This document shows, one piece after another, positions 12,430-48,635 of a DNA stretch of 64,000 nucleotides. Position 1 is the first letter of the stretch; each line of letters opens with the position of its first letter. The DNA is taken from positions 6,275 to 70,274 of the forward strand of contig JAVBUO010000001.1 in NCBI GenBank assembly GCA_031555315.1, in the 5' to 3' direction. The notes under the pieces were generated by a model. The model was not told the DNA's origin and made no database searches. It worked only from the letters and a program-made list of their open reading frames with translations. Source of the DNA: Acetobacteraceae bacterium. Lineage in GTDB: Bacteria > Pseudomonadota > Alphaproteobacteria > Acetobacterales > Acetobacteraceae. The translations under genes and the position numbers were made by a program.

Positions 12430-12486
12430 TGCATAAATGCGGTCAGATATGACCCTTGTTTCGTGATCTTTCCTGAGGCTAGAACC

Positions 12487-13965: not shown

Positions 13966-13978
13966 GGGGTATGGTATC

Positions 13979-14704: not shown

Positions 14705-14722
14705 CTTACGGGTATTCATCAC

Positions 14723-14875
14723 ATGGACACGCTCATTCAACATTACCCAGTCCTGAAGCAGATATGGATCATCTGGTCCGTGCTACTTTTCATCGGGATC
14801 GTCGCTTGGGCGTTGTGGCCCAGCAGAAGCAAGGAAATGGAACGCCTTGCCAAGCTGCCACTCGAAAAGGATTGA
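14723..14875 (+). CDS. ccoQ: cbb3 oxidase small subunit CcoQ (50 aa)
   Basis: Below the ORF-track cutoff; hand translated as MDTLIQHYPVLKQIWIIWSVLLFIGIVAWALWPSRSKEMERLAKLPLEKD. Single TM, correct position between ccoO and ccoP. Confidence 0.7.
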   Translation: MDTLIQHYPVLKQIWIIWSVLLFIGIVAWALWPSRSKEMERLAKLPLEKD

Positions 14876-14884
14876 GGCATCGTC

Positions 14885-15772: not shown

Positions 15773-15781
15773 AGGTCTGAT

Positions 15782-31140: not shown

Positions 31141-32067
31141 TCAAGCCCGAACGGGCATCCGGCCGTAATTGGGCGGTTTTGCCGCCCCTTTTGCCGCCGC
31201 CGGCACGGTTGCCGCGGCGGGTGGCACTGCATTTGCCGCCGCCGGCGCGGGTGCACCGCCAACCGGTATGTAAACCCCTCGCCCGCCCGTTTCCGGCGCG
31301 AAGCGGTCGCTGACCCCCACCACGGTCTCGGCCGCCCCGAGATACAGCACGCCGTCGTCCGGCATGATCTTGCGGATCGCCGCCAGGGTCCGGGATTTTG
31401 TCTGATAGTCGAAATAAATAAGCACGTTACGGCAGAACACAATATCGAACCGCCCCAGTCCGCTCAGGTCGGCCAGCAGATTCCATTCGCGGAACTGCAC
31501 CATGTTGCGGATCTTCTCGGACAGCAACCAGTTCTGCCCGACGCGCTGGAAATACTTGACCAGCATTTGCACGGGCAGGCCGCGCTGTACTTCGAACTGG
31601 GTGTATATTCCCTCTCGCGCCCGCGACAGCTGGTCGCGGGCGATATCCGTCCCGATGATCTCGATCCGCCGCCCCTGCGCCAGAGCCGGATTATCCGCCA
31701 GCATCATCGCGATGGAATACGCTTCCTGCCCCGACGACGAAGCGGCCGACCAGACCCGGATCGTCCCCCCGGGCGGGCGGGCGGCGCACAGTTTCGGAAA
31801 CGCCTGCAGACGCAAATGCTCGAACGGGCGTCCGTCGCGGAAAAAAAGCGATTCGTTGGTGGTCATCGCCTCGACGACACGTGCCGCGATGGCCTCGGCG
31901 CCGGGCTGGCGCAAGCGTGTCGCCAGCGCATCCAGATCGGCCAGTTTCTCGGTCTGGGCGATCGGCGTCAGCCGCGCATTCAGCAGGTAATCCTTGTCCC
32001 GGCCGATCACCAGCCCCGAGCGGGTTTTCAGCAGCGCCGCCAGGAAATCGAAATTCGCTGGTGTCAT
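31141..32067 (-). CDS. cheR: Chemotaxis protein methyltransferase
   Basis: ORF 31141..32067. Motifs TTNESLFFRD, RVWSAASSSGQEAYS and FCRNVLIYFD. Confidence 0.95.
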   Translation of the reverse strand: MTPANFDFLAALLKTRSGLVIGRDKDYLLNARLTPIAQTEKLADLDALATRLRQPGAEAIAARVVEAMTTNESLFFRDGRPFEHLRLQAFPKLCAARPPGGTIRVWSAASSSGQEAYSIAMMLADNPALAQGRRIEIIGTDIARDQLSRAREGIYTQFEVQRGLPVQMLVKYFQRVGQNWLLSEKIRNMVQFREWNLLADLSGLGRFDIVFCRNVLIYFDYQTKSRTLAAIRKIMPDDGVLYLGAAETVVGVSDRFAPETGGRGVYIPVGGAPAPAAANAVPPAAATVPAAAKGAAKPPNYGRMPVRA

Positions 32068-33182
32068 GCGCGCGCTCCCATTTTTGTACTGTTGCCAACC
32101 AGGCTCAGGATCTTTCGGGAAATTTCAGGCAACGGCAGAATCGAGAAACAGAGACCCGCCTGCGCCACAGCGCCGGGCATGCCCCAGACGACGCTCGTCG
32201 CCTCGTCCTGCGCAATGATGCCGCCCGATGCCGCAATCAACTTTTCGCCGCCGCGCAAACCGTCACTGCCCATGCCGGTCAGGATGACAGCCAGGGTCCG
32301 GTCGCCTGCCGCCACGGCAAGGCTGCGCAACAGCGGATCGACCGCGGGACGGCAGAAGTTTTCGGGCGGGTCGTCGTTCAGCCGTATGGAAAGCGATGTG
32401 CCGCTGCCCGCGACCACCATATGCCGCCCGCCGGGCGCGAGATGGACATGGCCGGGACGCAGCGCCTCGCCATCGATGGCTTCCGCGCATGTGGGACCGT
32501 TCAGGCGGTTGATATGCTCGGCCAGCATGCCGGTAAACGCCGCCGGCATATGCTGGGTCAGCAAAATGGGAAGCGGGAAGTTTCGGCCCAGTGCCGGGAT
32601 CAGCGACAACAGCGCCTGCGGCCCGCCGGTCGAACTGCCGATCGCCAGAACACGCGGCGGCAACGGCGGCGCCGATCGCAAGGTCGGTTTTTTTGCCCCG
32701 GCCGGCGCCGGTGTTATCGCCTGTCTGCCGCGACGCGCCCCCAGCGCGCGCACCTTGGAAATCAGATCCCGGCGGAAAAGGTCGTCACCGCTGACATTGG
32801 CCAGACTGGTCGGTTTCGGCACATAGTCCGCCGCCCCCAGTTGCAGGGCGCGCATGGTGACATCGGCGCCGCGGGTCGTCAGCGTGGACACCATGATGAC
32901 CCGTACATCCGGCGCGGCTTTGAGGATCAGCGGCAGAGCCGTCAGCCCGTCCATCACCGGCATTTCGATATCGAGGACGACGACATCGACGCGGGCCGAA
33001 CGCAACTGATCCAGCAGTTCGCGCCCATTACCGGCCCGCAGGACGACGTTGATCTGTGGCGACGATTCCAGCGCACGTCCGATGATGCCGCGGATCAGTG
33101 GCGAATCGTCGCATATCGCAACGCGAACCGCACTGTCCGCAGCAGCAGGCGCCGCGGATCTGGCTGACACGGGAGGCAGCAT
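32064..33182 (-). CDS. cheB: Chemotaxis response regulator protein-glutamate methylesterase
   Basis: ORF 32064..33182. REC domain (DVVVLDIEMPVMDG) plus methylesterase domain (IGSSTGGPQAL). ATGA overlap with cheR. Confidence 0.95.
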   Translation of the reverse strand: MLPPVSARSAAPAAADSAVRVAICDDSPLIRGIIGRALESSPQINVVLRAGNGRELLDQLRSARVDVVVLDIEMPVMDGLTALPLILKAAPDVRVIMVSTLTTRGADVTMRALQLGAADYVPKPTSLANVSGDDLFRRDLISKVRALGARRGRQAITPAPAGAKKPTLRSAPPLPPRVLAIGSSTGGPQALLSLIPALGRNFPLPILLTQHMPAAFTGMLAEHINRLNGPTCAEAIDGEALRPGHVHLAPGGRHMVVAGSGTSLSIRLNDDPPENFCRPAVDPLLRSLAVAAGDRTLAVILTGMGSDGLRGGEKLIAASGGIIAQDEATSVVWGMPGAVAQAGLCFSILPLPEISRKILSLVGNSTKMGARA

Positions 33183-33184
33183 GA

Positions 33185-33562
33185 TTACATCGCCCCGATC
33201 TGAGTCAATTTACCGAGCAGAATATCTTCATCGAAAGGCTTCATGATATACTCGCACGCACCGGCTTCCAGCGCGGCGCAGATGCGGGACATCTCGCTCT
33301 CGGTGGTACAGAACACGACATGCGGCAAATGCTCCGCGTCCTCAGCGGCCAGCGTGCGCAGCATGGTGATGCCATCCATCACCGGCATGTTCCAGTCCAA
33401 AAGGACCACGTCCGGTTTCACCGCACGACAGGCTTCCAGACCTTCCTGTCCGTTCACGGCTTCCGTCACCTCGAAACCGTGTTTTTCAAGCATTCGGCGT
33501 GACAGTTTTCGGACGACAGCACTGTCATCGACGACAAGGCACACCTTTGCGGACATGATCAT
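33185..33562 (-). CDS. cheY: CheY-like single-domain response regulator
   Basis: Internal ATG 33562 of ORF 33185..33706. Starts MIMSAKVCLVVDDS and contains VVLLDWNMPVMDG. ATGA overlap with the cheW stop. Confidence 0.9.
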   Translation of the reverse strand: MIMSAKVCLVVDDSAVVRKLSRRMLEKHGFEVTEAVNGQEGLEACRAVKPDVVLLDWNMPVMDGITMLRTLAAEDAEHLPHVVFCTTESEMSRICAALEAGACEYIMKPFDEDILLGKLTQIGAM

Positions 33563-34062
33563 GCTTCTCCGACTGTCGCTGAACCTGCCGTAATAGCCGT
33601 CAGCGCCGATACATCGAGGATCGACAGCAGAACGCCATCCAGCTGGTACACCGATGTTGCGAACGTACGCAGCGGCGCCGGCAAGGTCGACGGCAGTGCT
33701 TCGCACTTGTCTTTGCCCAGCGTCAGCACATCGCCGACCGTATCCACCATCAGACTGTAAAACTCGCCGCGGCTTTCGACCACGATGCTGGTCTGCTTGA
33801 TGTTTGTCGCCTCACCGCCCAGACCGATCCGCCGGCGCAGATCGATCGCCGTGACGATACGGCCGCGTAAATTGAGGCTGCCGGATATTTCTCCCGGCGC
33901 CAGCGGGATCTTTGCGATCGCCGGCGCGATCAGCACATCCTGGACACTCAGGACCGGAATGCCGCACAGCATGTCCGCAACCGTCAGCGTCACGAAAGTG
34001 TCTTCCTCGCGCACCGTTTTTCCTGAACGATCGCGCTCGATGACGTTTGCCTGGCTTTTCAT
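33559..34062 (-). CDS. cheW: Chemotaxis coupling protein CheW
   Basis: ORF 33559..34062. A CheW-like domain spans the whole protein. ATGA overlap with cheA. Confidence 0.9.
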   Translation of the reverse strand: MKSQANVIERDRSGKTVREEDTFVTLTVADMLCGIPVLSVQDVLIAPAIAKIPLAPGEISGSLNLRGRIVTAIDLRRRIGLGGEATNIKQTSIVVESRGEFYSLMVDTVGDVLTLGKDKCEALPSTLPAPLRTFATSVYQLDGVLLSILDVSALTAITAGSATVGEA

Positions 34063-36659
34063 GCTGTCGCTCCTTCATGCACCAGTGCGCCGGCAGGAGA
34101 GAGCCTGAACGCAATGGCCTGCATCAATCCTTCGCGGTCCATTTTCTGGACATGTTCGGTGAACCCGGCCTGACGGCCACGTTCCAGGTGCTCGGGTTCG
34201 GCAAGGCTGGACAGCGCGATGACCGGCAGGTCCATCCAGATACCATCCCGACGTATTTCTTTCGCGAAAGTAAAACCATCCATGCCCGGCATTTCTATGT
34301 CGGTGACGATCGCATCGAACATGGATCCTGCTTCACGCAGACGCAGCGCCTCGGCCGGGTTCAGAACCGCGGTCACTTCATAACCGGCGGACGACAGGAC
34401 CGGCACCAGCATCTGGCTGAAGAACGCACTGTCCTCCACCACCAGAAGACGCCTTTTGTCCACTTTCTGCGCCTGCTTCGTGAACCAGTTGTCCGAAGCG
34501 CGCGACAGCCAGTATGCCGTGTCGATCACATCGGTGGCTTTTCCGTTGATGACCGCCGAGCCAAGCGTTCCGTCCTGGCCTTTGCCGAGCTCGATCTTTA
34601 TCACGTCCTCAACGATGTCGATGATTTCGTCGACCAGAAGTCCCATCGCGCAGTCGCCGTCCGTGAAGACCAGTATCGGCTGACGCGGGCTGCTCGTGTC
34701 CACACCCATCCGCACCAGCGGCAGAAGATGGTCGCGATACTGAAGAACTTCGTCGCCCGCCGATGTATGCTCGATGCTTTCGCGCGGCATGTCCTCGATG
34801 CGCGAAACCAGAGTCAGCGGCACGGCTTTCGGCTCTGCGCCGCCGGCGCGGAACAGGAGCAGCGCCACCTTTTCGCCCGTGGTCGCATGGACCCCGCTCT
34901 GTTCGATGTCTTTGCCGGCGGTGGCGGATTCACGGCCCAGGCTGACGTCCGCGGCGCGGGCGATACCGTTCGGGTCCAGGATCATGATCACCGAACCGTC
35001 ACCCAGGATCGTGTTGCCGCTGAAGACGCTGAGGTGCCGCAAAATCGGCGCCAACGGCTTCACGACGATATCTTCGGTGTCGAACACGCGATCGACGATG
35101 ATCCCGAACGTATTGGCCCCGACCTGGGTCACGACGACATAATCGCTCTCGCGGCCGGTATTGTCACTTTCACCGAGCCCCAGCAGTTCCGACAAACGCA
35201 CCAGCGGTAACAGACGGTTGCGCAGGCGCAGCACCGGTGTGCGGCTGATCCGTTCGATCGGTGCGTCCACACCCGCGCGCACCAGCTCCACGACGCTGAT
35301 CTGCGGAATGGCGAAACGTTCGCCGCCGGCCGCCACGACCAGCGCCGACACGATGGCCAAGGTGATCGGAATTTTAATGCTGAAGGTGCTGCCCTGACCT
35401 TCGGTCGACTGCACGTCGATCGTGCCGCCGATGCGTTCGATGTTGGTGCGGACGACGTCCATACCGACACCGCGCCCCGAAACCGCCGTCACCTTTTCCG
35501 CGGTCGAAAAACCTGCATGGAAGACCAGGTTACGGATCTGCGAGTCCGGCATCTGGGCCAGTTCGGCTTCCGTGCAAACGCCGCTGCTGATTGCCTTGGC
35601 GCGGATCTTGTCCATCGGCAGGCCGCGGCCGTCGTCGGCGATCTCGATGATGATGTGACCGCCTTCATGATAGGCGTTCAGGGTCAGGCGGCCGGTTTCC
35701 GGCTTGCCGGCCGCGCGCCGCGTCATGGGGTCTTCGATCCCGTGGTCGGCGCTGTTGCGCACCATGTGCGTCAGCGGGTCTTTGATCAGCTCCAGCACCT
35801 GCCGGTCGAGCTCGGTTTCGGCCCCCAGCATGACCAGCTCGATCTTCTTGTTCAGGTCGCGCGCCAGATCGCGCACCAGACGCGGCACCTTGTTCCATGC
35901 ATGCCCGATCGGCTGCATGCGCGCCTTCATCACGCCTTCCTGCAGATCCGATGTGATATGCGACAAACGCTGCAGCGGCACATTGAACGGGCTGTCTTCG
36001 ACCGAACGCGACAACTGCAGCAGCTGGTTGCGCGACAGTACCAGTTCGCTGACCAGCGTCATCAGGTTTTCCAGCACTTCCACACCGACGCGAATGGTCT
36101 GCCCGGCCACCGATGAGGCATGCTGATCAGCCTCTGGTGCCGCCGCGACCGCAGTGGCCTTGTGGGCGACGATTTCCGCCTCAACCGGCGCCGGCGCCGG
36201 CGTTTCCAGGGCCGGATTCGGGGCAGGCTCGGCCGGCGCGTTGAATATTTCTTCGAGTTCCGCTTCGGTCGCGGGCGGCGGGTCACCCGCGATGATCGCA
36301 TCCAGTGCGGCGATCAACTGGCCGTCGTCACCCGAAGGTTCGCTCTGCGTCGTTTCAAGACCGCTCAGAATCAGGCGGATCCGGTCGATCGCCGCCAGAA
36401 TGGTGGTAATCGATTCCGGTGTCGGCACCAGAACACCATCGCGGCACTTGCCCAGCACGTTCTCGGCGGCATGCGCTACGGCCTCCAGGCGCTGCAGGCC
36501 AAGGAAGCCGCAGGTTCCCTTGATCGTGTGCATCAGCCGGAAGATCAGCGACACGGTCTGCGCGTCGGCTGGATCCTGTTCGAGTTTCAGGATCGCCTCG
36601 TCCAGCGCCCCCAGGTTTTCGTTCGTCTCCACAAGGAAGTCCGCGATCAGGTCGTCCAT
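34059..36659 (-). CDS. cheA: Hybrid chemotaxis histidine kinase CheA with two CheW-like domains and a C-terminal receiver
   Basis: ORF 34059..36677 (TTG), with the start moved to the MDDLIADFLVETNENL N-terminus (ATG 36659, GGGCAGGGA upstream). Domains by eye are listed below.
- Hpt: LMHTIKG.
- HATPase: RNSADHGIE, GRGVGMDVV.
- Two CheW-like segments.
- REC: IVTDIEMPGMDG. Confidence 0.9.
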   Translation of the reverse strand: MDDLIADFLVETNENLGALDEAILKLEQDPADAQTVSLIFRLMHTIKGTCGFLGLQRLEAVAHAAENVLGKCRDGVLVPTPESITTILAAIDRIRLILSGLETTQSEPSGDDGQLIAALDAIIAGDPPPATEAELEEIFNAPAEPAPNPALETPAPAPVEAEIVAHKATAVAAAPEADQHASSVAGQTIRVGVEVLENLMTLVSELVLSRNQLLQLSRSVEDSPFNVPLQRLSHITSDLQEGVMKARMQPIGHAWNKVPRLVRDLARDLNKKIELVMLGAETELDRQVLELIKDPLTHMVRNSADHGIEDPMTRRAAGKPETGRLTLNAYHEGGHIIIEIADDGRGLPMDKIRAKAISSGVCTEAELAQMPDSQIRNLVFHAGFSTAEKVTAVSGRGVGMDVVRTNIERIGGTIDVQSTEGQGSTFSIKIPITLAIVSALVVAAGGERFAIPQISVVELVRAGVDAPIERISRTPVLRLRNRLLPLVRLSELLGLGESDNTGRESDYVVVTQVGANTFGIIVDRVFDTEDIVVKPLAPILRHLSVFSGNTILGDGSVIMILDPNGIARAADVSLGRESATAGKDIEQSGVHATTGEKVALLLFRAGGAEPKAVPLTLVSRIEDMPRESIEHTSAGDEVLQYRDHLLPLVRMGVDTSSPRQPILVFTDGDCAMGLLVDEIIDIVEDVIKIELGKGQDGTLGSAVINGKATDVIDTAYWLSRASDNWFTKQAQKVDKRRLLVVEDSAFFSQMLVPVLSSAGYEVTAVLNPAEALRLREAGSMFDAIVTDIEMPGMDGFTFAKEIRRDGIWMDLPVIALSSLAEPEHLERGRQAGFTEHVQKMDREGLMQAIAFRLSPAGALVHEGATA

Positions 36660-36760
36660 ATCCCTGCCCATCTGCAAATCTGTACAGTGGGAAAGCTACA
36701 GGGATATTCTTGCGCGAAACTTAAGAGCCGGCTTTTTAGTAAGCCATTAACGGCTGGACT

Positions 36761-40918: not shown

Positions 40919-41914
40919 TCACACTTGTAACCACAGCACGTCACCGATCCTGTTTGCTCCCGCCGCCACCATCGCCAGCCGGTCGAACCCCAGCGCGATC
41001 CCGGCCGCTTCCGGCATGCCGTGTTCAAGGGCGGCCAGAAAATCCTCGTCCGTGCCCCAGCCGGGGCCGTACAGCGCCTCGCGCCGCGCACGGTCTTCGG
41101 CGAAGCGGCGGCGCTGTTCCACCGGGTCGGTCAGTTCGACGAACGCATTGGCCAGTTCCATGCCGCACAGGAACAGTTCGAACCGTTCCGCCACGCGCGG
41201 ATCGTCCGGGCAGCGCCGCGCCAGGGCCGCCTGGCTGGCGGGGAAATACGTCAGAAACGTCGGGTGTTCACGCCCCAGATTGGGCTCCACCTTGGCCAGC
41301 AGCAGGCGAAAGAACAGGTCCTCCCAGCTTTCACCATCGCGCAGCGATACCCCCGCCTGCCTGGCAAGTGCCGCCGCATCGCCCTCGGTCGCCAGCACGT
41401 CGGCACCGGCGTAGCGCGTGAACGCCTCGGCCACCGACAGGCGCTCGAACCGCGCCAGATCGGCGGTCACGCCGCGGCACGTTACCACCGGCGGCAGAAC
41501 CGCACGTAACAGAGCTTCCACCTCGTCCATCAGGTCGGCCATCGTCGCGCCGGGACGGTACCATTCCAACATGGTGAATTCGCTCGCGTGGGTGTCGCCG
41601 CCCTCGGCATTGCGCCACACCCGCGCCAACTGGAAGATCCGCCCGGCCCCGCCGGCCAGCAGCTTCTTCATCGCGAATTCGGGGCTGGTGTTCAGCCAGA
41701 GCGGGGTGATCGCGCCCAGATGATCCTCGCGTTCGGTGCGAAAGGCGCGCAGATGCACCTCCTCGCCCGGAACCGGCACGGCGTAGGGGGTTTCCACCTC
41801 GGTATAACCGCGCGCGGTAAAGAAAGCCCGTGTGCCGGCGGTCAGCAAAGACCGCCGCCGCAGGTATGGCAGGCGTGCGGCCAGCCGTTCGGGATGCCAG
41901 AGCTGTTGCGACAT
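40919..41914 (-). CDS. epmA: EF-P lysine-lysyltransferase (truncated LysRS paralog)
   Basis: ATG 41914 inside ORF 40919..41926 (41926 is GTG). Class II aaRS core FFTARGYTEVETP...SPEFAMKKLL...EFTMLEWY...GIALGFDRL. Confidence 0.9.
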   Translation of the reverse strand: MSQQLWHPERLAARLPYLRRRSLLTAGTRAFFTARGYTEVETPYAVPVPGEEVHLRAFRTEREDHLGAITPLWLNTSPEFAMKKLLAGGAGRIFQLARVWRNAEGGDTHASEFTMLEWYRPGATMADLMDEVEALLRAVLPPVVTCRGVTADLARFERLSVAEAFTRYAGADVLATEGDAAALARQAGVSLRDGESWEDLFFRLLLAKVEPNLGREHPTFLTYFPASQAALARRCPDDPRVAERFELFLCGMELANAFVELTDPVEQRRRFAEDRARREALYGPGWGTDEDFLAALEHGMPEAAGIALGFDRLAMVAAGANRIGDVLWLQV

Positions 41915-41946
41915 GATGCCGCGCACATTAAACGTTGCGCCCTCAA

Positions 41947-42984
41947 ATGCCAGACACCCTGCCCCCCGACCGGACCTTGCGCACCCCTGCCGACATCGAA
42001 GCGGCGGGCCTGGCGGCGCGCGCCGATGCCGAGGCGGTGGGCGCGCGCTACGCCATCGCCATCACGCCGGCGATCCGCGCGCTGATCGAGGCGCCCGACG
42101 ATCCGATCGGCATGCAGTTCGTGCCGCACATCGATGAACTGACGCTCGCCCCGCACGAAAGCACCGACCCGATCGCCGATGATGCGCTCTCGCCGGTCAA
42201 GGGCATCGTGCATCGCTATGCGGATCGCGCGCTGCTGAAGCCACTGCTGGTCTGCCCCGTCTATTGCCGGTTCTGCTTCCGGCGCGAACATGTCGGCCCC
42301 GATGGCGGACTGCTGAGCGACGCCGAACTTGAAGCCGCATTCGACTGGATTCGCGTGCATCCGCAGATCAGCGAAATCATCATGACCGGCGGCGACCCAT
42401 TGATGCTGTCGCCGCGGCGGCTGGCGCACATCATGTCGGCGCTGTCGGCAATTCCGCATGTCGAGACGATCCGCATCCATTCACGCGTGCCCATCGCCGA
42501 TCCGGCGCGCATCACGCCGGACCTGCTGGCCGCGCTGGAGACAGATCGTGCGCTGTGGGTTGCCGTGCATGCCAACCACGCGCGCGAATTCGGCGACGAC
42601 GCCCGCGCCGCACTGCGCCGCATGAACCGCGCGGGCATACCGCTGCTGGGTCAGTCGGTGCTGCTGCGCGGCGTGAACGACAGCACCGCAGCACTAGAAG
42701 CCCTGTTCCGCACCATGCTCGCCAACCGGGTCAAACCGTATTACCTGCACCAGCTCGACAGCGCCCCCGGCACCGCGCGCTTTCACGTGCCGATCGCCGA
42801 GGGCCGCCGCCTGCTGGCCGGACTGCGCGGACGGGTAAGCGGCCTGGCATGGCCGACTTACGTGCTGGATATCCCCGGCGGGTACGGAAAAGTGCCTCTG
42901 GGGCCGGATTTTCTGGAAAAAGATGCCGTTCGCGACCCGAATGGCGGCTGCCACCGGCTTGCCGGGCCGGACCTGGCGGTTTAG
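41947..42984 (+). CDS. epmB: Lysine 2,3-aminomutase-like radical SAM enzyme
   Basis: ATG 41947 inside ORF 41935..42984 (41935 is TTG). Radical SAM cluster motif CPVYCRFCFRR and KamA-family sequence. Confidence 0.9.
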   Translation: MPDTLPPDRTLRTPADIEAAGLAARADAEAVGARYAIAITPAIRALIEAPDDPIGMQFVPHIDELTLAPHESTDPIADDALSPVKGIVHRYADRALLKPLLVCPVYCRFCFRREHVGPDGGLLSDAELEAAFDWIRVHPQISEIIMTGGDPLMLSPRRLAHIMSALSAIPHVETIRIHSRVPIADPARITPDLLAALETDRALWVAVHANHAREFGDDARAALRRMNRAGIPLLGQSVLLRGVNDSTAALEALFRTMLANRVKPYYLHQLDSAPGTARFHVPIAEGRRLLAGLRGRVSGLAWPTYVLDIPGGYGKVPLGPDFLEKDAVRDPNGGCHRLAGPDLAV

Positions 42985-43035
42985 ACCACCCACCAACCCA
43001 ATACATCGCCCCAATACATCGCACTGAGAGATAAC

Positions 43036-43599
43036 ATGAAACAGCAGGCGAACCTCATTCGTGCAGGCCAGGTCATCGAACACGGAGGCCGCCGCTGGAC
43101 GGTACTGAAGCAGCAGATCATTACCCCCGGCAAAGGCGGCGCCTTCATCCAGGTGGAAATGCGCGACCTAAAAACCGGCAACAAGACCAACGAGCGCTGG
43201 CGCACCGCCGATACCGTCGAACGGCTGATGACGGAAGACAAGGAATTCACCTATTCCTATACCGATGGCGACAACCTGGTGTTCATGGATCCGGAAACCT
43301 TCGAACAGACGATGATCCCCGCCTCGCTGCTGGGCGATGGCGTCGCGTTCCTGCAGGACAACATGACGGTCAACGTCAATCTGGTGGAAGGCGAACCGGT
43401 CGCCATCCAGTTGCCGCCGAACGTGGTGCTGGAGATCGTCGAGGCCGACCCGGTGGTGAAGGGGCAGACGGCGTCGTCGTCTTACAAGCCCGCCATGCTG
43501 TCGAACGGGGTGAAGACCATGGTGCCGCCGTTCATCGAGGCCGGCGAGAAAGTGGTGATCCGCACGGAAGACTCATCCTACGTCGAACGCGCGAAGTAA
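43036..43599 (+). CDS. efp: Translation elongation factor P
   Basis: ORF 43036..43599. Loop ITPGKGGAFIQVEMRD carries the Lys expected for beta-lysylation. Confidence 0.95.
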   Translation: MKQQANLIRAGQVIEHGGRRWTVLKQQIITPGKGGAFIQVEMRDLKTGNKTNERWRTADTVERLMTEDKEFTYSYTDGDNLVFMDPETFEQTMIPASLLGDGVAFLQDNMTVNVNLVEGEPVAIQLPPNVVLEIVEADPVVKGQTASSSYKPAMLSNGVKTMVPPFIEAGEKVVIRTEDSSYVERAK

Positions 43600-44442: not shown

Positions 44443-44540
44443 AATTCAACAAAAACAGTTCAATGAAACGTTTTTTTAGAGTAACAAAATCGCTGCGCTT
44501 AACCGTTGCCGTCGAATATAAAACTGCACAATCCGTGAAT

Positions 44541-44572
44541 CTGACCTATAAGATTATCAATCTTTAGGTCAG
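44541..44572. promoter_or_regulatory. AT-rich 32-nt imperfect palindrome just upstream of the stator-like operon
   Basis: CTGACCTATAAGATTATCAATCTTTAGGTCAG pairs as 14 bp with one bulge around a 3-nt loop. It ends 12 nt before ATG 44585. Confidence 0.4.
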
Positions 44573-44584
44573 GCACTTCGTGGA

Positions 44585-45247
44585 ATGCTCGGGAAACAGT
44601 TGAACATTCAGGCTGCCATTCTGTCTTCTGGCATACTGTTCTGTGCCATGGCATACGCACAGACCATATCGGCCCCCGAACACAGTCTACGCATTCCAGA
44701 AATGAGCGACATTCCCGCCGCCCCGGTGCTGGACCCGCTGCAGACGCCGCAGGCCGTGCATGTGGACCGCTCGCCTGCCTCGCCTCCTTCCTTGGCCGCC
44801 AGCCCTGTCTCCACAGTTCCCGCCCCCCAGCGCCAGGCAGAAGACCAGACCGTTAGGCCGACGCCTGCAGGTACTGCCGCATCTCGGGCTGGGGCAGCGG
44901 CCTCGGCCTATGCCCGACAGATCGTCAACGGCATTCGCATCATCCTGCCGTCCAAGGAAGCCAGCGCCCCGCCGGGCGGCGCAATCCCGGCATTGCAGGC
45001 TTTTCTGCGCGCCATTCCGGACGGCAACACTAGCCGTATCACCGTTTCCGCCTATGCCAGCGGGACAACCGAAGATGTCTCGACACCGCGCCGTCTGTCG
45101 TTGCAACGTGCGCGGGCGGTACAGGAAATCCTGGTCGGGGCCGGCGCCGATCCCCGGCGAATCGACCTTCGGCCGATGGGAATCGCCACGACCGATGCCA
45201 ACATACCGGACCGCATCGACATAACGCTTGGGGTAACACCACGATGA
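44585..45247 (+). CDS. Secreted Pro-rich protein with C-terminal OmpA-like segment
   Basis: ORF 44585..45247. Signal peptide ...FCAMAYA-Q, and C-terminus RITVSAYASG...RRLSLQRARAVQEILVGAGADPRRIDLRPMG. Confidence 0.7.
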   Translation: MLGKQLNIQAAILSSGILFCAMAYAQTISAPEHSLRIPEMSDIPAAPVLDPLQTPQAVHVDRSPASPPSLAASPVSTVPAPQRQAEDQTVRPTPAGTAASRAGAAASAYARQIVNGIRIILPSKEASAPPGGAIPALQAFLRAIPDGNTSRITVSAYASGTTEDVSTPRRLSLQRARAVQEILVGAGADPRRIDLRPMGIATTDANIPDRIDITLGVTPR

Positions 45248-46389
45248 CCAACCCGATACACTACCTCTGGCGGATGCTGATCTTTCTGGCCATCGTCGCC
45301 GGGGTGGCGTTCCTGCTGCATAAAACCCTGATGATGGCGTTCGCGGCCAATCCGGTTCTGGATGCGGTCATCCTTCTGGTGCTGTTCCTGGGCATTCTGT
45401 GGAATTTCCGCCAGGTGCTGCGGCTGCGGCGTGAAGTGAACTGGGTAAAGACCTTTCAGACCAGCCGGACGGCATTGTCGGCCATCCCCGCCCCGCGCCT
45501 GCTGGCGCCGATGGCGTCGATGCTGGCGACACGCATGAAGAAGGCACCGGACGGCGACGAGCGTGTCACCTTGTCGCCGCCTGCCATGCGCAGCATGCTG
45601 GATTCCATCCAGAGCCGCCTGGACGAAAGCCGCGAGCTGTCGCGCTATATGACCGGGCTGATGATCTTCCTCGGCCTGCTGGGAACGTTCTGGGGCCTGC
45701 TGCTGACGGTGGGCAGCGTAGGCGACGTGATCGCCGGCATGTCGGTGGGCTCCGGTGACGTCAGCGCCATGTTCGACCAGTTGAAGAATGGCCTGGCGCA
45801 GCCGCTGCGGGGCATGGGCACGGCGTTCAGCGTCTCGATGCTCGGCCTGTCGGGCGCACTGGTGCTCGGCTTTCTCGATCTCACGGCAGGACAGGCGCAG
45901 AACCGCTTCTTCAACGAGCTCGAGGAATGGCTGGCCGGGCTGACCCGCCTGTCGTCCGGCGCGCTGAGCGATGGCGATGCCAATGTGCCGTTCTATGTGC
46001 AGTCACTGCTGGAACAGACTGCCGAGAACATGGAAAGCCTGCAACGTATTCTGGCGCGCGGCGAGGACAGCCGGCGCGAAAGCAGCCATGCGGTGCTGGC
46101 GCTGGCTGAACGGCTCGGCGTGATGACGGAATCGATGCGCGCCAACCAGCAATTGATGCTGCACATCGCCGAAAGCCAGCAGGCGTTGGCGCCGCTGTTC
46201 CAGCGCCTCGCCCAGCAGGGCTCCGCCGACGACGGCGTCCGTCAGCATCTGCGCAATATCGAAACCACACTGGCCCGTCTGTTGAGCAGCATGGAACAGG
46301 GCCGCGGCGAAATGACCGGCGAGATCCGCAACGAGATCCGCCTGCTGACCCGCACCATCGAACACATTTCCCAAGAAACGTCGCAGTAA
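45244..46389 (+). CDS. MotA/TolQ/ExbB-family proton-channel protein with long helical C-terminal tail
   Basis: ORF 45244..46389. Four predicted TM helices, with signature helices LGLLGTFWGLLLTV and GMGTAFSVSMLGLSGALVLGF. ATGA overlap with the preceding gene. Confidence 0.8.
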   Translation: MTNPIHYLWRMLIFLAIVAGVAFLLHKTLMMAFAANPVLDAVILLVLFLGILWNFRQVLRLRREVNWVKTFQTSRTALSAIPAPRLLAPMASMLATRMKKAPDGDERVTLSPPAMRSMLDSIQSRLDESRELSRYMTGLMIFLGLLGTFWGLLLTVGSVGDVIAGMSVGSGDVSAMFDQLKNGLAQPLRGMGTAFSVSMLGLSGALVLGFLDLTAGQAQNRFFNELEEWLAGLTRLSSGALSDGDANVPFYVQSLLEQTAENMESLQRILARGEDSRRESSHAVLALAERLGVMTESMRANQQLMLHIAESQQALAPLFQRLAQQGSADDGVRQHLRNIETTLARLLSSMEQGRGEMTGEIRNEIRLLTRTIEHISQETSQ

Positions 46390-46392
46390 GAC

Positions 46393-47673
46393 ATGGCATC
46401 CGGTTTTTCCCGCAGGTCGCGTGGCAACGGGCTGGATGCCTGGCCCGGTTACGTGGATGCACTGTCGGTCCTGCTGATGGTGATCGTCTTCGTGCTGCTG
46501 GTGTTCGTCAGTGCACAGGGTTTTCTGACCGCCGCTCTGTCGGGGCGCGATCGCGCGCTCGACCGTCTGAACCAGCAGATCTCGGAACTGACCGAGGTAC
46601 TGGCACTCGAACGCGGCCAGTCCGAAGAACTGCGCCTGTCGCTCGCCCAGTTGACGCGTGACCTGCAAAGCGTAACCGACGCCCGCGACACGCTGAACCG
46701 GCAGATCGCGGCCTTGCGCGCCGAGCAGGCCGCCACAGCGAGCGAACGCGACACATTGCGCAGCGAACGCGATACCCTGCACGGGCAGCTCTCGGACGCC
46801 ACCACACAGATGCAGGCGGCCAGCGAGCGCGCGGCACAGTTGGAAGAAACCCTGACCACGACGCGCGAACAGGCCGAATCCCAGGCGCGCGAGGCCGCCA
46901 GCCTGGCCGAGCAGGTGCGCGCCCTGACCGCCCTGCGCGACGAGCTTGAACGCGCAGCGCAGGATGCTGCCGCCCGCGACATGACCGACGAGGACCGTCA
47001 GGCCGCCCTCAACGCACAGCTCGCCGAGGAACGCCGTCTGTCGGAAAGCGCGCGCGCCCAGGTCGCGTTGCTGAACCGGCAGATGGACGAGCTGCGCGCC
47101 CAACTGGTGCAGATATCGGCGGCGCTCGAAGCCGCGGAAAACGCCGACCGGGAAAAGGAAGTCCAGATCGCCAATCTCGGCAGCCGCCTGAACGCGGCGC
47201 TGGCCCAACGTGTCGAGGAACTGCAGCGTTACCGGTCCGACTTTTTCGGCCGGCTGCGCGACGTGCTCGGCAACCGTCCGGGCGTGCAGATCGTCGGCGA
47301 CCGTTTCGTGTTCCAGAGCGAGGTACTGTTCCCGTCCGGCAGCGCCGAACTCAGCGAGGCCGGTCAGGAACAGATCCGCCAACTGGCCGCCACGCTGAAA
47401 GAACTGATCACCCAACTGCCAGCTGATCTGCCCTGGGTGCTGCGCGTCGACGGGCACGCCGACCGCACACCGGTGTCGCGGGGTTTTGCCTCGAACTGGG
47501 AACTGTCCACCCAGCGCGCGATCAATGTCGTGAAGCTGCTGGTCGCCGAGGGGATTCCCGCCAACCGCCTGGCCGCCGCCGGGTTCGGCGAATTCCAGCC
47601 GGTCGATGCTGCCAACACGCTGGAAGCCTTCGCGCGCAACCGCCGTATCGAACTGCGGCTGACGGATCGCTGA
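46393..47673 (+). CDS. MotB-like protein: TM helix with conserved Asp, about 250-aa coiled coil, OmpA/MotB peptidoglycan-binding domain
   Basis: ORF 46393..47673. N-terminus WPGYVDALSVLLMVIVFVLLVF, followed by heptad-rich Q/E/R/A/L sequence. C-terminus FQSEVLFPSGSAEL...NWELSTQRAINVVKLL...NRRIELRL. Confidence 0.8.
   Translation: MASGFSRRSRGNGLDAWPGYVDALSVLLMVIVFVLLVFVSAQGFLTAALSGRDRALDRLNQQISELTEVLALERGQSEELRLSLAQLTRDLQSVTDARDTLNRQIAALRAEQAATASERDTLRSERDTLHGQLSDATTQMQAASERAAQLEETLTTTREQAESQAREAASLAEQVRALTALRDELERAAQDAAARDMTDEDRQAALNAQLAEERRLSESARAQVALLNRQMDELRAQLVQISAALEAAENADREKEVQIANLGSRLNAALAQRVEELQRYRSDFFGRLRDVLGNRPGVQIVGDRFVFQSEVLFPSGSAELSEAGQEQIRQLAATLKELITQLPADLPWVLRVDGHADRTPVSRGFASNWELSTQRAINVVKLLVAEGIPANRLAAAGFGEFQPVDAANTLEAFARNRRIELRLTDR
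46741..46782 (+). repeat. In-frame 21-bp tandem duplication (one heptad) inside the coiled-coil region
   Basis: AGCGAACGCGACACATTGCGC / AGCGAACGCGATACCCTGCAC, 17 of 21 identical. Encodes SERDTLR / SERDTLH. Confidence 0.8.
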
Positions 47674-48297
47674 ATGGTGCACATCGTCGACCATCCCCTC
47701 GCCCAGGCGAAACTCACCCGGTTGCGCCGGATCGACACGACGACACCGGCATTCCGGCATACGCTGCGTGAACTCGCCACATTTCTGGCCATCGAAGTGA
47801 CCCGCGATCTGCCGATCACCCATACGCCGGTCACCACCCCCGTCGCGCCGATGATGGCGCCGGTGCTGGCCGCGCCGATCCCGTGTCTGGTGTCGATCCT
47901 GCGCGCCGGCGAAGGGCTGCTGGAAGGGTTCCTCGACGTTCTCGACGATGCACCGGTCGCGCATATCGGTGCATACCGCGACCATGCCACGCTGGAAGCC
48001 GTCGAGTATTACTTCAAGGCTCCTTCCGATATCGCCCAGCGCGGCGCCATCGTGATCGACCCGATGCTGGCGACCGGCAATACCGCGGTGGCCGCCGTCG
48101 CCCGCCTGAAAAAGGCCGGTGTTCACAACATCCGCTTCGCCTCGGTGCTGGCCGCACCCGAGGGCGTGCGCGCTCTGGCCGCAACACACCCGGATGTTGA
48201 AATCTGGACCATATCGCTCGACGAGCGCCTGAACGAGAACGGCTATATCGTCCCCGGCCTCGGCGACGCGGGCGACCGCGCGTTCGGAACCCTCTGA
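47674..48297 (+). CDS. upp: Uracil phosphoribosyltransferase
   Basis: ORF 47674..48297. Motifs ILRAGEG, VIDPMLATGNT and YIVPGLGDAGDR. The ATG directly abuts the preceding stop. Confidence 0.95.
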   Translation: MVHIVDHPLAQAKLTRLRRIDTTTPAFRHTLRELATFLAIEVTRDLPITHTPVTTPVAPMMAPVLAAPIPCLVSILRAGEGLLEGFLDVLDDAPVAHIGAYRDHATLEAVEYYFKAPSDIAQRGAIVIDPMLATGNTAVAAVARLKKAGVHNIRFASVLAAPEGVRALAATHPDVEIWTISLDERLNENGYIVPGLGDAGDRAFGTL

Positions 48298-48339
48298 CGC
48301 ACAGCAATGCTGCGGGTCGCCCATATCTGGAAAACGCCT

Positions 48340-48635
48340 TCTGCGCTTTTGCAGCATGCAGATGGCGGCAAGAAAACCGTGAACTCCCTCAAGGAAATAG
48401 CCGCAGCCAGGGGCTGTACACCGGCGCAACCCGCCGTTTCCTGGCTCCCTCCCGCGGCGATGATATCGTCCCGTTGCTCGGTATGAGCCGACGCACCCGC
48501 GTGCCTGAAAACCTCCAGGTTCTTGACATCGTTCTTACTGCCAGGGAACTAGATGCACTGGACCGAGCCTTCGCACCGGGCGCCATCAAGGGAGACCGCT
48601 ATCCCGAGATGGTCATAAACCTCGCGGCGCGCTGA
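48340..48635 (+). pseudogene. 3' remnant of an aldo/keto reductase gene (N-terminal two thirds missing, at least one frameshift)
   Basis: Hand translation in one frame gives ...SLKEIAAARGCTPAQ. After a shift the next frame gives RGDDIVPLLGMSRRTRVPENLQVLDIVLTARELDALDRAFAPGAIKGDRYPEMVINLAAR*. This is the classic AKR C-terminus. There is no start and no catalytic N-terminal part. The left boundary is approximate. Confidence 0.65.

What the first reader, a model, noticed from the sequence alone, without database searches (positions are those of the whole stretch)
44585..47673. Three-gene OmpA-like / MotA-like / coiled-coil MotB-like operon: a functionally unassigned ion-driven stator module
Seen in sequence:
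- Three co-directional ORFs are packed tightly (ATGA overlap at 45244-45247, 3-nt gap at 46390-46392). upp follows with no spacer.
- Gene 1 (220 aa) has a signal peptide, a Pro-rich linker and an OmpA-like C-terminal segment.
- Gene 2 (381 aa) has four predicted TM helices, including the family signature helices LGLLGTFWGL and GMGTAFSVSMLGLSGALVLGF. It also has a ~170-aa helical, heptad-like cytoplasmic tail.
- Gene 3 (426 aa) starts with a MotB/ExbD/TolR-type helix carrying the conserved acidic residue (WPGYVDALSVLL, Asp codon 46456-46458). About 250 residues of uninterrupted coiled-coil-type sequence follow, then an OmpA/MotB peptidoglycan-binding domain.

Established knowledge: MotAB, ExbBD, TolQR, AglRQS, GldLM and ZorAB are related 5:2 ion-powered rotary motors, each coupled to a different output.

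Inference:
- This looks like a further member whose output is unknown.
- No flagellar, tol-pal, tonB, gliding or Zorya effector gene lies in the 64 kb.
- If straight and periplasmic, a 250-residue coiled coil would be about 35 nm long, longer than a typical periplasm is wide. Its geometry must therefore differ from MotB.
- A second, separate OmpA-like protein suggests a dedicated cell-wall anchoring arrangement.
Basis: partly seen in the sequence, partly recalled or inferred. Interest (0 to 1): 0.7.

Follow-up and report, generated by a model that had tools for sequence, protein, structure and literature searches.

The report
Conserved non-flagellar stator-like motor operon
Three tightly packed genes encode what looks like a proton-driven membrane motor related to flagellar stators, Ton/Tol motors and the Zorya phage-defence motor; it sits in the core genome of many Alphaproteobacteria, is routinely mislabelled "flagellar MotA/MotB", and its cellular job is still unknown.

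Summary
Three co-directional ORFs lie at 44585-47673: g1 (a secreted OmpA-like protein), g2 (a four-helix membrane A subunit with a helical cytoplasmic tail) and g3 (a MotB-type helix with an aspartate, about 240 residues of coiled coil, then a MotB-type wall-binding domain).

This is not the flagellar stator, Ton/Tol or Zorya. It is a separate, very large alphaproteobacterial family:
- At least 551 species genomes carry it, and g2 and g3 are adjacent in 80 of 80 loci examined.
- The order efp-suhB-[g1]-A-B is kept from Acetobacteraceae to Rhodospirillaceae and Hyphomicrobiales.
- No copy was found in phage or viral collections.

The nearest sequence and structure matches of g2 are ZorA, then ExbB and TolQ, never flagellar MotA. 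g3 belongs to NCBIfam PRK09039.

The family is not untouched. The "motA/motB" genes of flagellum-less Komagataeibacter hansenii are orthologues (54% identity). They localise to cell poles and alter cell length and cellulose texture.

New here: the periplasmic coiled coil varies from 179 to 480 residues, almost always in whole heptads, and stays in one register from the membrane helix onward.

Function remains unassigned. The best reading is a wall-anchored 5:2 ion motor whose rotating tail is the output.

The parts
44443..44584 (.). AT-rich intergenic region upstream of g1 (142 bp, 37% GC in a ~64% GC window). Probable promoter or regulatory region of the operon (inferred).
   Evidence: Composition and sequence. 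The sigma-70 consensus scan found nothing, so the promoter is not demonstrated.
44585..45247 (+). g1: secreted accessory protein of 220 aa. Signal peptide is residues 1-26 (44585-44662, cleavage AYA|Q). Pro/Ala-rich spacer is residues 27-115 (44663-44929). Divergent OmpA-like peptidoglycan-binding domain is residues 116-220 (44930-45244).
   Evidence: ORF. Pfam OmpA 23.9 bits, below the 27.2 cutoff. Orthologue profile A2 against the PDB: YiaD 2e-11, OmpA, YfiB. D84, R89, R90 and R95 of the trimmed domain are conserved or invariant. An orthologue sits at the same position in most Acetobacteraceae loci and in Rhodospirillaceae and Hyphomicrobiales MAGs. Signal-peptide pattern.
45244..46389 (+). 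g2: A subunit of 381 aa. TM1-TM2 hairpin is residues 5-58 (45256-45417). Short cytoplasmic domain is residues 59-135 (45418-45648). TM3 is residues 136-160 with invariant G147-T148 (45649-45723). Conserved periplasmic loop is residues 161-188 (45724-45807). TM4 is residues 189-213 with GMGTAFS (45808-45882).
   Evidence: AF2 model pLDDT 86.7. Invariant columns. PADLOC ZorA1 1.4e-13. Pfam MotA_ExbB 20.4 bits against a 22.9 cutoff, with 28 of 65 relatives matching at E<=1e-3. Foldseek best hits are ZorA 8vvn, ExbB 5sv0 and TolQ 9ddm.
45883..46386 (+). Cytoplasmic tail of g2 (residues 214-381). The helix continues from TM4 to residue 239, followed by a disordered linker (240-249) and a helical hairpin (250-324 and 330-380). 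Strongly conserved motifs are LLEQTAENM, HLRNIE and EIRNEIRLLTRTI.
   Evidence: Secondary structure. Conservation. The ZorA1 profile alignment extends to residue 358. The K. hansenii orthologue lacks 33 residues exactly at the hairpin tip. The tail module is tandemly multiplied in relatives P0122 and P0151.
46393..47673 (+). g3: B subunit of 426 aa. Basic N-terminus is residues 1-16. Membrane helix with WPGYVD is residues 17-44 (46441-46524), with the Asp22 codon at 46456-46458. Periplasmic coiled coil is residues 45-282 (46525-47238). YRSDFF linker plus MotB-type peptidoglycan-binding domain is residues 283-426 (47239-47670).
   Evidence: NCBIfam NF006543 (PRK09039.1-2) 495 bits against a 305 cutoff. 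Pfam OmpA 3e-17. PDB MotB and PomB C-terminal domains 4e-13. hhalign against E. coli MotB gives 97% with the SNWELSxxRA motif. Asp motif in 67 of 67. Continuous heptad register. Heptad-quantised length. Single-sequence AF2 gives helices 21-194 and 200-292 followed by an alpha/beta domain.
47674..48297 (+). upp (uracil phosphoribosyltransferase). It abuts g3 with no spacer and is probably co-transcribed here, but it is not part of the module.
   Evidence: Pfam UPRTase 1.5e-70. upp directly follows g3 in only 2 of the 80 related loci, L003 and L054.

Best explanation
g2 and g3 encode the A and B subunits of a non-flagellar member of the 5:2 ion-driven motor superfamily. The family is conserved in the core genome of Alphaproteobacteria. 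g1 is an accessory secreted wall-binding protein.

Proposed mechanism, with shown and inferred steps marked:
1. Inferred by homology: five g2 chains surround two g3 membrane helices. Proton flow via the invariant g3 Asp22 and polar residues of g2 TM3/TM4 (invariant T148; the GMGTAFS motif) drives rotation of A5 relative to B2.
2. Shown from sequence: each g3 helix runs without a register break from inside the membrane into a long two-stranded coiled coil. The coil ends in a MotB-type peptidoglycan-binding domain with intact binding motifs.
3. Inferred: the coil (~35 nm here, 23-68 nm across the family) is far longer than the membrane-to-wall gap. It must therefore lie obliquely or nearly parallel to the membrane, anchoring the motor to a wall site some distance away.
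4. Inferred: with B2 fixed to the wall, the g2 pentamer is the rotor. Its five conserved cytoplasmic tails form a short ZorA-like bundle that is the output or signalling element.
5. Inferred: g1 is translationally coupled to g2. It carries a Pro-rich spacer and its own OmpA-like domain, and adds a second wall attachment or regulates anchoring.
6. From the literature on orthologues: the complex sits at cell poles, and its dosage changes cell length, colony spreading and cellulose architecture. The likely output is therefore a cell-pole, envelope or growth process rather than flagellar rotation.
For: Superfamily membership:
- PADLOC ZorA1 1.4e-13 and ZorB3 1.9e-24.
- Pfam MotA_ExbB E=4.7e-4, and 28 of 65 relatives match.
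- Foldseek top hits are ZorA, ExbB and TolQ at probability 1.00.
- The only stator-type sequence hit in the PDB is ZorA 8vvn.

B subunit:
- NCBIfam PRK09039 at 495 bits, above cutoff.
- Asp motif in 67 of 67.
- MotB-type wall-binding domain, 97% by hhalign.

Coiled coil:
- A single heptad phase from residue ~24 to ~275.
- The Asp-to-YRSDFF distance is 179-480 residues but equals 4 mod 7 in 56 of 66 distinct sequences, at 20 distinct lengths.
- Indels map to two hot spots. Two of the four gappy stretches span 7 alignment columns and one spans 56; the largest spans 66.

Conservation and context:
- At least 551 species genomes.
- g2 and g3 adjacent in 80 of 80 loci, with efp-suhB upstream.
- The same efp-suhB-OmpA-A-B order in Hyphomicrobiales and Rhodospirillaceae MAGs, and suhB-A-B in S. 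meliloti.
- Nothing in viral or phage collections.

Not flagellar:
- hhalign against E. coli MotA gives 11.7%.
- No flagellar MotA in the Foldseek top 50.
- The orthologue P0493 (EFG85642.1, 54% identity) is the 'MotA' of flagellum-less K. hansenii. Its GFP fusions are polar, and overexpression elongates cells. Disruption gives denser cellulose.
Against: - No direct evidence here for complex formation, 5:2 stoichiometry, ion conduction or wall binding.
- The Pfam matches of g2 and g1 fall below their gathering cutoffs. NCBIfam ZorA scores are far below cutoff (15 vs 100 bits).
- The geometry of the coiled coil is unresolved. The single-sequence AF2 model breaks the helix at 195-199.
- The identity of the rotor and the output partner are pure inference.
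- The K. hansenii phenotypes come mostly from overexpression and could be indirect membrane stress.
- g1 is missing in S. meliloti, so it cannot be essential to the core mechanism.
- The heptad statistic is not corrected for shared ancestry.
Confidence: 0.65

Rival explanations
1. It is simply the flagellar stator MotAB, as NCBI's product names say.
For: - Sources name homologues 'flagellar motor protein MotA'.
- g3 has a MotB-type helix and wall-binding domain.
- A che cluster lies in the same window.
- Overexpression in K. hansenii tripled colony spreading.
Against: - The A profile against E. coli MotA gives 11.7% probability over one helix only.
- No flagellar MotA or PomA appears among the top 50 structural matches.
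- No NCBIfam MotA model is hit.
- E. coli MotA finds 249 plasmid or chromid records, while g2 finds only 5.
- The neighbours are efp-suhB, not flagellar genes, in every lineage examined.
- K. hansenii has no flagellum and no other motility genes.
- By established knowledge, S. meliloti has separate flagellar motA/motB/motC genes.
- g3 has no MotB plug, and its ~240-residue coiled coil is not seen in flagellar stators.
Confidence: 0.03
2. It is a Zorya-type anti-phage system, or a degenerate remnant of one. ZorAB would sense envelope perturbation and signal through the tail.
For: - The best profile hits are ZorA1 and ZorB3.
- The best structural hit is ZorA 8vvn.
- The A subunit has a C-terminal cytoplasmic helical tail like ZorA.
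Against: - No ZorC, D, E, F or G, or any nuclease or helicase, lies nearby. The neighbours are housekeeping genes.
- The locus is syntenic across orders of Alphaproteobacteria and present in 80 of 80 Acetobacteraceae loci, unlike sporadic defence islands.
- It is absent from viral contigs and phage genomes.
- NCBIfam ZorA scores are 15 and 13 bits against cutoffs of 100 and 500.
- The tail is ~165 aa rather than ~500 aa.
- The ZorB wall-binding domain is fused to its helix without a linker, whereas g3 has a 150-450-residue coil.
Confidence: 0.05
3. It is a Ton/Tol-like energy-transduction system. g2/g3 would be the ExbBD/TolQR-like motor and g1 the TonB/TolA-like transducer reaching the wall or outer membrane.
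For: - The A-subunit fold matches ExbB and TolQ.
- The gene order accessory-A-B resembles tonB-exbB-exbD.
- g1 has a long Pro-rich spacer like TonB.
- In most orthologues, g1 carries a conserved short strand-like motif (QVTVDxxALxxLP) at the mature N-terminus. This recalls TonB-box or TolB N-terminal motifs (the resemblance is from memory).
Against: - g1 has a conserved cleavable signal peptide (AxA|Q) rather than a membrane anchor with an SHLS motif.
- Its C-terminal domain is OmpA-like, not a TonB or TolA C-terminal domain.
- g3 carries a MotB-type wall-binding domain, unlike ExbD or TolR.
- g1 is absent in S. meliloti.
Confidence: 0.1
4. It is a passive envelope tether rather than a motor. 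Two wall-binding modules and a long coiled-coil strut would link the inner membrane to peptidoglycan, and the channel-like features would be vestigial.
For: - Two OmpA-like domains.
- A very long rod whose length is free to vary.
- The Pfam match of g2 is below cutoff.
Against: - The Asp in the B helix is invariant in 67 of 67.
- G147, T148, G151, P187, M191 and F195 in the A helices are invariant across relatives down to 33% identity. This argues for a maintained ion pathway.
- The cytoplasmic tail is as conserved as the membrane core, which a passive tether would not need.
Confidence: 0.12

Closest known systems
ZorAB, the motor core of the Zorya anti-phage system (PDB 8vvn, 8qyd; Hu et al. 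2024, PMC11946911)
   Same: - It is the best sequence-profile and structure match for g2.
- The A subunit has an ExbB-like membrane core plus a C-terminal cytoplasmic helical tail.
- The B subunit has one helix with an essential Asp and an OmpA/MotB-type wall-binding domain.
- g3 matches ZorB3 at 1.9e-24.
   Different: - There are no effector genes.
- The locus is core-genome and syntenic rather than a defence island, and it is absent from phage and viral data.
- The tail is ~165 aa, not ~500.
- g2 has four membrane helices against three in ZorA.
- The ZorB wall-binding domain is fused directly to the helix, whereas g3 inserts 150-450 residues of coiled coil.
- Scores are far below the NCBIfam ZorA cutoffs.
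'MotA/MotB' of Komagataeibacter (Novacetimonas) hansenii ATCC 23769 and 53582 (Jacek et al. 2018-2019; PMC6570709, reviewed in PMC7347698)
   Same: - It is the same family. P0493 (EFG85642.1, 348 aa) is 54% identical to g2 over its full length.
- It has an adjacent B gene with one membrane helix and an OmpA-like domain.
- It belongs to the same bacterial family, Acetobacteraceae.
   Different: - The K. hansenii proteins are shorter: the tail-tip hairpin lacks 33 residues, and the B subunit is 321 aa against 426.
- The authors treated them as motility genes. They did not recognise the ZorA/ExbB affinity, the coiled coil or g1, and they state that the partner is unknown.
Flagellar stator MotAB/PomAB
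   Same: - The B subunit has a MotB-type helix motif with Asp and a wall-binding domain with SNWELSxxRA.
- The gene order is A then B.
- The A subunit has four predicted membrane helices.
   Different: - The A subunit lacks the large torque-generating cytoplasmic domain. hhalign gives 11.7%, and flagellar MotA is absent from the Foldseek top 50.
- There is no plug.
- There is no flagellar gene context.
- The family is present in a flagellum-less genus.
ExbBD-TonB and TolQRA
   Same: The A-subunit fold is shared: Foldseek 5sv0, 9ddm and 8odt at probability ~1.0. The GxxGT motif of the channel helix aligns with ExbB.
   Different: - The B subunit has an OmpA/MotB domain instead of the ExbD/TolR periplasmic domain.
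- There is no TonB or TolA homologue.
- g1 is secreted, not membrane-anchored.

Membership tests
MotA/TolQ/ExbB superfamily (Pfam PF01618) | The protein reaches the Pfam gathering score for MotA_ExbB. | tested here: not met
   g2 scores 20.4 bits against a 22.9 cutoff, E=4.7e-4, aligned over residues 90-162 only. Of 65 relatives, 28 match at E<=1e-3, best 1.4e-5. This is remote homology at the model's limit.
MotA/TolQ/ExbB superfamily (fold) | The A-subunit fold has two channel-lining helices carrying a conserved Thr/Ser and a GxxGT motif. | tested here: met
   The AF2 model has pLDDT 86.7. Foldseek matches ZorA, ExbB and TolQ at probability 0.99-1.00. G144, G147, T148 and G151 are invariant in 65 sequences.
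5:2 ion-driven motors | The B subunit has a single membrane helix with a conserved acidic residue. | tested here: met
   WPG[YF]VD is present in 67 of 67 orthologues, including S. meliloti. The Asp22 codon is at 46456-46458.
5:2 ion-driven motors | A5B2 stoichiometry and ion-driven rotation. | not testable with these tools
   No multimer prediction or experiment was available. These properties are inferred from homology only.
NCBIfam PRK09039 'peptidoglycan-binding protein' (NF006543) | The score is above the curated equivalog cutoff. | tested here: met
   g3 scores 495.2 bits against a 305 cutoff. The sister model NF006544 is also passed, at 371 against 362.
OmpA-like peptidoglycan-binding domain (PF00691) | A domain match with the conserved Asp and Arg of the binding site. 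| tested here: met
   g3 scores 63.1 bits against 27.2, and GHxD and NWELSxxRA are invariant. g1 alone scores 23.9, below 27.2, but its orthologue profile matches YiaD at 2e-11 and the D/RR/R residues are conserved.
Flagellar stator MotAB | The A subunit is homologous to MotA, including the cytoplasmic torque-generating domain. | tested here: not met
   hhalign against E. coli MotA gives 11.7% over 55 columns. No NCBIfam MotA hit. No flagellar MotA or PomA in the Foldseek top 50.
Flagellar stator MotAB | Co-occurrence and genomic association with flagellar genes. | tested here: not met
   The neighbours are efp, suhB, an MFS transporter gene and rpmE in all lineages seen. An orthologue is present in flagellum-less K. 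hansenii, which has no other motility genes. A genome-wide co-occurrence survey could not be run.
Zorya defence system | ZorA and ZorB pass the curated models. | tested here: not met
   NCBIfam ZorA_2 gives 15.4 bits against 100, and ZorA_4 gives 13.4 against 500. The PADLOC ZorA1 and ZorB3 hits are significant (1.4e-13 and 1.9e-24) but partial.
Zorya defence system | Adjacent effector genes (ZorC/ZorD, ZorE or ZorF/ZorG) and a sporadic, island-like distribution. | tested here: not met
   No such genes were found in the ORFs scanned across the window. The syntenic core locus is conserved. No viral or phage copies were found.
Ton/Tol systems | A membrane-anchored TonB/TolA transducer and an ExbD/TolR-type B subunit. 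| tested here: not met
   g1 has a cleavable signal peptide and an OmpA-like C-terminus. g3 has a MotB-type domain.

The most novel reading that the evidence does not exclude
This is a housekeeping sister of the Zorya motor that has been part of the alphaproteobacterial core genome since before the orders diverged. In this reading, a wall-anchored rotary engine has a rotating cytoplasmic tail that drives or reports a still unknown process at the cell pole or envelope. Its stator arm is a periplasmic coiled-coil rod of freely variable but heptad-quantised length. That rod is assisted by a dedicated secreted wall-binding partner (g1). This would be a new output class for 5:2 motors, and possibly the cellular machine from which Zorya was recruited.
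Probability: 0.35. Interest if true: 0.8.

Novelty: new variant of a known kind. Interest (0 to 1): 0.6.

Why it matters
Each known branch of the 5:2 motor superfamily couples membrane energy to a different task: flagellar rotation, Ton import, Tol-Pal constriction, gliding and Zorya defence. This branch is present in at least hundreds of species, including rhizobia, acetic acid bacteria and rhodospirilla. It is fixed at one core-genome locus and mislabelled as flagellar in public annotation, and it has no assigned output.

It combines the two most unusual appendages seen in the superfamily: a ZorA-like cytoplasmic tail and a very long periplasmic stalk. Working out its role would add a new function to the superfamily and would correct thousands of annotations. 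It could also explain the cell-length and cellulose-texture phenotypes already exploited in Komagataeibacter strain engineering.

The heptad-quantised stalk gives a clean handle for structure-function tests, such as adding or removing non-heptad segments.

Tried and rejected
1. Rgs polar-growth proteins of S. meliloti. I suspected from memory that some were MotA- or OmpA-like. The paper mentions no ExbB, OmpA or proton-channel domain, so this was rejected.
2. Literature searches for 'PRK09039', 'MotAB-like' and 'stator-like' with Alphaproteobacteria found nothing relevant beyond the Komagataeibacter work. The stator-evolution papers note unnamed non-flagellar clades but do not describe this family.
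3. Single-sequence PDB search with g2 gave only marginal coiled-coil or chemoreceptor hits (E>=0.11). The resemblance of LLEQTAENME to the chemoreceptor motif LEETAASMEE is not significant, and no Pfam MCPsignal hit appeared, so I dropped it.
4. Hairpin model of the g3 coil. The AF2 monomer breaks the helix at residues 195-199. That site is an indel hot spot where orthologues carry up to 56 extra residues. The arm lengths would also place the wall-binding domain anywhere from below the membrane to more than 40 nm away. The break is therefore not a conserved turn.
5. Co-variation of the g1 spacer length with the g3 coil length: none found (Spearman -0.27, p=0.12, n=33).
Only a single-sequence model was obtained.
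7. Tandem DNA repeats in the coil-coding region: none found.
8. The genome-contig scan was saturated by Acetobacteraceae. Breadth beyond that family rests on a handful of loci and on source names.

Full report
OBSERVATION. The junctions are as described. g1 and g2 overlap by ATGA, a 3-nt gap (GAC) separates g2 from g3, and upp starts immediately after the g3 stop. Third-position GC is 0.84 for g2 and 0.80 for g3, typical of genes in this ~64% GC window. An 808-aa antisense ORF over g2, g3 and upp (46003-48429) has lower GC3 (0.72) and is overlain by genes with strong homology, so it is spurious. The 142 bp upstream of g1 are only 37% GC and probably hold the promoter. No sigma-70 consensus or terminator was detected.

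g1. g1 has a signal peptide ending AYA|Q, a Pro/Ala-rich spacer and a C-terminal domain. That domain alone scores just below the Pfam OmpA cutoff (23.9 vs 27.2 bits). I extracted the ORF that ends at the start of the g2 homologue in each related locus. In most loci it overlaps g2 by 4 nt, as it does here. A profile of 45 such C-termini (A2) matches solved OmpA-like domains clearly: YiaD 2e-11, then OmpA, YfiB, ArfA and MotY. The Asp and Arg residues of the ...DPSxxRRLSLxRA... motif are conserved. g1 is therefore a divergent but genuine OmpA-like wall-binding protein. In most orthologues the mature N-terminus begins with a conserved motif, QVTVDxxALxxLP, followed by a spacer with 20-35% proline. 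The copy in this window has a different N-terminal segment.

g2. With a 65-sequence alignment reaching down to 33% identity (A3), AlphaFold gives a confident model (pLDDT 86.7).
- A TM1-TM2 hairpin spans residues 5-58, followed by an ~80-residue cytoplasmic domain.
- TM3 lies within a long helix (residues 112-165), followed by a conserved 28-residue periplasmic loop.
- TM4 continues as a helix into the cytoplasm to residue 239, then comes a short disordered linker and a helical hairpin (250-324 and 330-380).
- Invariant positions cluster in TM3 and TM4: L143, G144, G147, T148, G151, L152, P187, M191, F195, G201 and L202.

The tail is as conserved as the membrane core within Acetobacteraceae, with the motifs LLEQTAENM, HLRNIE and EIRNEIRLLTRTI.

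Relationships of g2 are remote but consistent:
- Pfam MotA_ExbB gives E=4.7e-4, below cutoff, and 28 of 65 relatives match at E<=1e-3.
- PADLOC ZorA1 gives 1.4e-13 over residues 130-358.
- NCBIfam returns only weak ZorA hits and no MotA model.
- The profile search of PDB sequences finds ZorA 8vvn as the only stator-type hit.
- Foldseek ranks ZorA 8vvn first (21% identity), then ExbB and TolQ, with no flagellar MotA or PomA in the top 50.
- hhalign against E. coli MotA gives 11.7% probability.

The A subunit is therefore of the ZorA/ExbB/TolQ class, not the flagellar class.

g3. g3 passes the NCBIfam equivalog PRK09039.1-2 'peptidoglycan-binding protein' (495 bits against a 305 cutoff). Its C-terminus is a MotB-type wall-binding domain. 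Pfam OmpA gives 3e-17, and PDB MotB and PomB give 4e-13. hhalign against E. coli MotB gives 97% with the GHxD...SNWELSxxRA signature. Its N-terminus has a basic stretch followed by WPGYVDALSVLLMV (46441-46482). The Asp-containing motif is present in all 67 orthologues examined, including S. meliloti.

The coiled coil of g3. A single heptad phase runs from about residue 24, inside the membrane helix, to about residue 275. This holds both here and in the S. meliloti homologue. Across 66 distinct orthologues, the distance from the Asp motif to the conserved YRSDFF motif ranges from 179 to 480 residues. Yet it equals 4 mod 7 in 56 of them, at 20 different lengths. Five more equal 1 mod 7, an offset of 3-4 residues. 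The C-terminal part is constant at 147-149 residues (chi-square p~2e-55, not corrected for ancestry). Indels fall in two hot spots, window residues ~121-151 and ~193-209. Two of the four gappy stretches are exactly 7 alignment columns long and one is 56; the largest spans 66 columns.

The coil is therefore a genuine, uninterrupted heptad coiled coil whose register, but not length, is under selection. At 0.148 nm per residue it would be ~35 nm here and ~23-68 nm across the family. The Zorya paper quotes ~9 nm between inner membrane and wall in E. coli. The rod therefore cannot stand perpendicular between membrane and wall; it must lie obliquely or along the membrane (inference). A single-sequence AlphaFold model (pLDDT 72) shows helices 21-194 and 200-292 and then an alpha/beta domain. 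The break coincides with an indel hot spot rather than a conserved turn, so I do not accept a hairpin.

DISTRIBUTION AND CONTEXT. The family is very large.
- There are 2687 clusters at 50% identity with E<=1e-3 and 538 with E<=1e-30, many of them full length at 35-50% identity.
- At least 551 species-representative genomes carry it.
- In all 80 retrieved loci, all Acetobacteraceae, g2 and g3 are adjacent. Most have a g1 homologue, and most have efp-suhB just upstream.

The same pattern appears outside that family. S. meliloti has thiE-sel1-suhB-A-B-ABC-rpmE without g1. Skermanella also carries the A subunit. No copy was found in 2.9 million viral contigs or 50,697 phage genomes.

A Pfam scan of 40 further ORFs in the window found housekeeping genes and no flagellar structural, tol-pal, tonB, gliding or Zorya effector domain. 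They include ccoNOP-ccoG-ccoI, purA, a hisS-like gene, an rpoH-like sigma factor, epmA-like and epmB-like genes, suhB, upp and glcDF. efp was assigned from its ORF and its conservation in related loci. The window does hold a cheR-cheB-cheY-cheW-cheA cluster at 31141-36677 on the minus strand.

PRIOR KNOWLEDGE. The family is not unknown. [quoted passage not shown]

Jacek et al. (PMC6570709) studied the only 'motA' (348 aa) and 'motB' (321 aa) genes of flagellum-less Komagataeibacter hansenii ATCC 23769. Cluster member P0493 (EFG85642.1, Novacetimonas hansenii, 348 aa) is 54% identical to g2 over its whole length. It has a 33-residue deletion at the tip of the tail hairpin. Their findings were:
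- Overexpression elongated cells, tripled colony spreading on soft agar and loosened the cellulose network.
- GFP fusions were polar, unipolar in short cells and bipolar in long ones.
- Disruption in strain ATCC 53582 gave denser cellulose.
- The authors note that the partner of these proteins is unknown.

The stator-evolution papers mention large unnamed non-flagellar clades but do not describe this one.

MECHANISM. The best-supported reading is a non-flagellar 5:2 ion-driven motor.
- Shown: the domain architecture; conservation of the Asp and the channel-helix residues; the continuous coiled coil; intact wall-binding motifs; operon coupling; and the core-genome distribution.
- Inferred by homology: A5B2 assembly and proton-driven rotation.
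- Inferred from anatomy: B2 is fixed to the wall through a long oblique rod, so A5 is the rotor. Its five conserved tails form a short ZorA-like bundle that is the output or signal. g1 supplies a second wall attachment or regulates anchoring.
- From the orthologue literature: action at the cell pole, with effects on cell length.

In some relatives the tail module containing the HLRxIE motif is tandemly multiplied, to three copies in P0122 and about seven in P0151. This suggests it is a modular binding unit.

Rivals are listed separately: flagellar stator, Zorya defence, Ton/Tol-like transduction and passive tether. Each fails at least one tested defining feature.

VERDICT. This is a distinct, widely conserved and functionally unassigned branch of a known superfamily. 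It has two unusual appendages and a striking heptad-quantised stalk. It has already been annotated (wrongly) and lightly studied under the name motAB. I rate it a new variant of a known kind, with interest 0.6.

Noticed in passing
window 31141-36677 (- strand): A chemosensory gene cluster: cheR (31141-32067), cheB (32064-33182), a cheY-like receiver (~33185-33560), cheW (33559-34062) and a CheA-receiver hybrid (34059-36677). No chemoreceptor gene was found next to it. It is flanked by a hisS-like gene and an asparaginase gene. It lies 8-13 kb from the operon, and no link to the operon is shown.
   Followed up: partly
window 46003-48429 (- strand): An 808-aa antisense ORF spans g2, g3 and upp. 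Its GC3 (0.72) is lower than that of the sense genes (0.80-0.84), and those genes have strong homologues. It is a spurious long ORF of the kind that high-GC, coiled-coil-coding DNA produces, and it fooled a simple GC3-based gene filter.
   Followed up: partly
P0122 (581 aa) and P0151 (614 aa), relatives of g2: In some relatives the cytoplasmic tail is lengthened by tandem copies of the module that carries the D-x-x-x-R-x-HLR-x-(I/L)-(E/D) motif. There are three copies in P0122 and about seven in P0151. P0124 instead carries a ~170-residue Pro-rich C-terminal extension.
   Followed up: partly
g1 orthologues in L005-L082, L085, L086 (for example L008:3964-4767): Immediately after a conserved AxA|Q signal-peptidase site, most g1 orthologues start with QVTVDxxALxxLP (VTVDLSV/VSVDLSV in other orders). 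A spacer with 20-35% proline follows. The window's own g1 and its closest relative L003 have a different N-terminal segment (RIPEMxDxPA). The position and strand-like character recall TonB-box or TolB N-terminal motifs. That resemblance is from memory and was not tested.
   Followed up: partly
window 40919-43599: efp is flanked by a class II lysyl-tRNA-synthetase-like gene (epmA/genX-like, 40919-41926, - strand) and a lysine-2,3-aminomutase-like radical SAM gene (epmB-like, 41935-42984). This is an EF-P beta-lysylation set in an alphaproteobacterium. The arrangement is conserved in many of the Acetobacteraceae loci.
   Followed up: no
window 12322-20107: A cbb3-type cytochrome oxidase cluster: ccoN, ccoO and ccoP, followed by ccoG-like and ccoI-like (P-type ATPase) genes.
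   Followed up: no
L083 = CP090106.1 3079130-3092092: The PLSDB record titled 'S. meliloti Ak57 plasmid pSymB' is 3.72 Mb long and carries purE, rpmE, suhB and thiE. It therefore looks like the chromosome under a plasmid label. Only for this reason did a plasmid search find the S. meliloti homologue.
   Followed up: no
window 26634-28571 (- strand): A 644-aa ORF with only a weak, sub-threshold protein-kinase match (Pfam Pkinase 26 bits against a 31.7 cutoff). It is otherwise unassigned.
   Followed up: no
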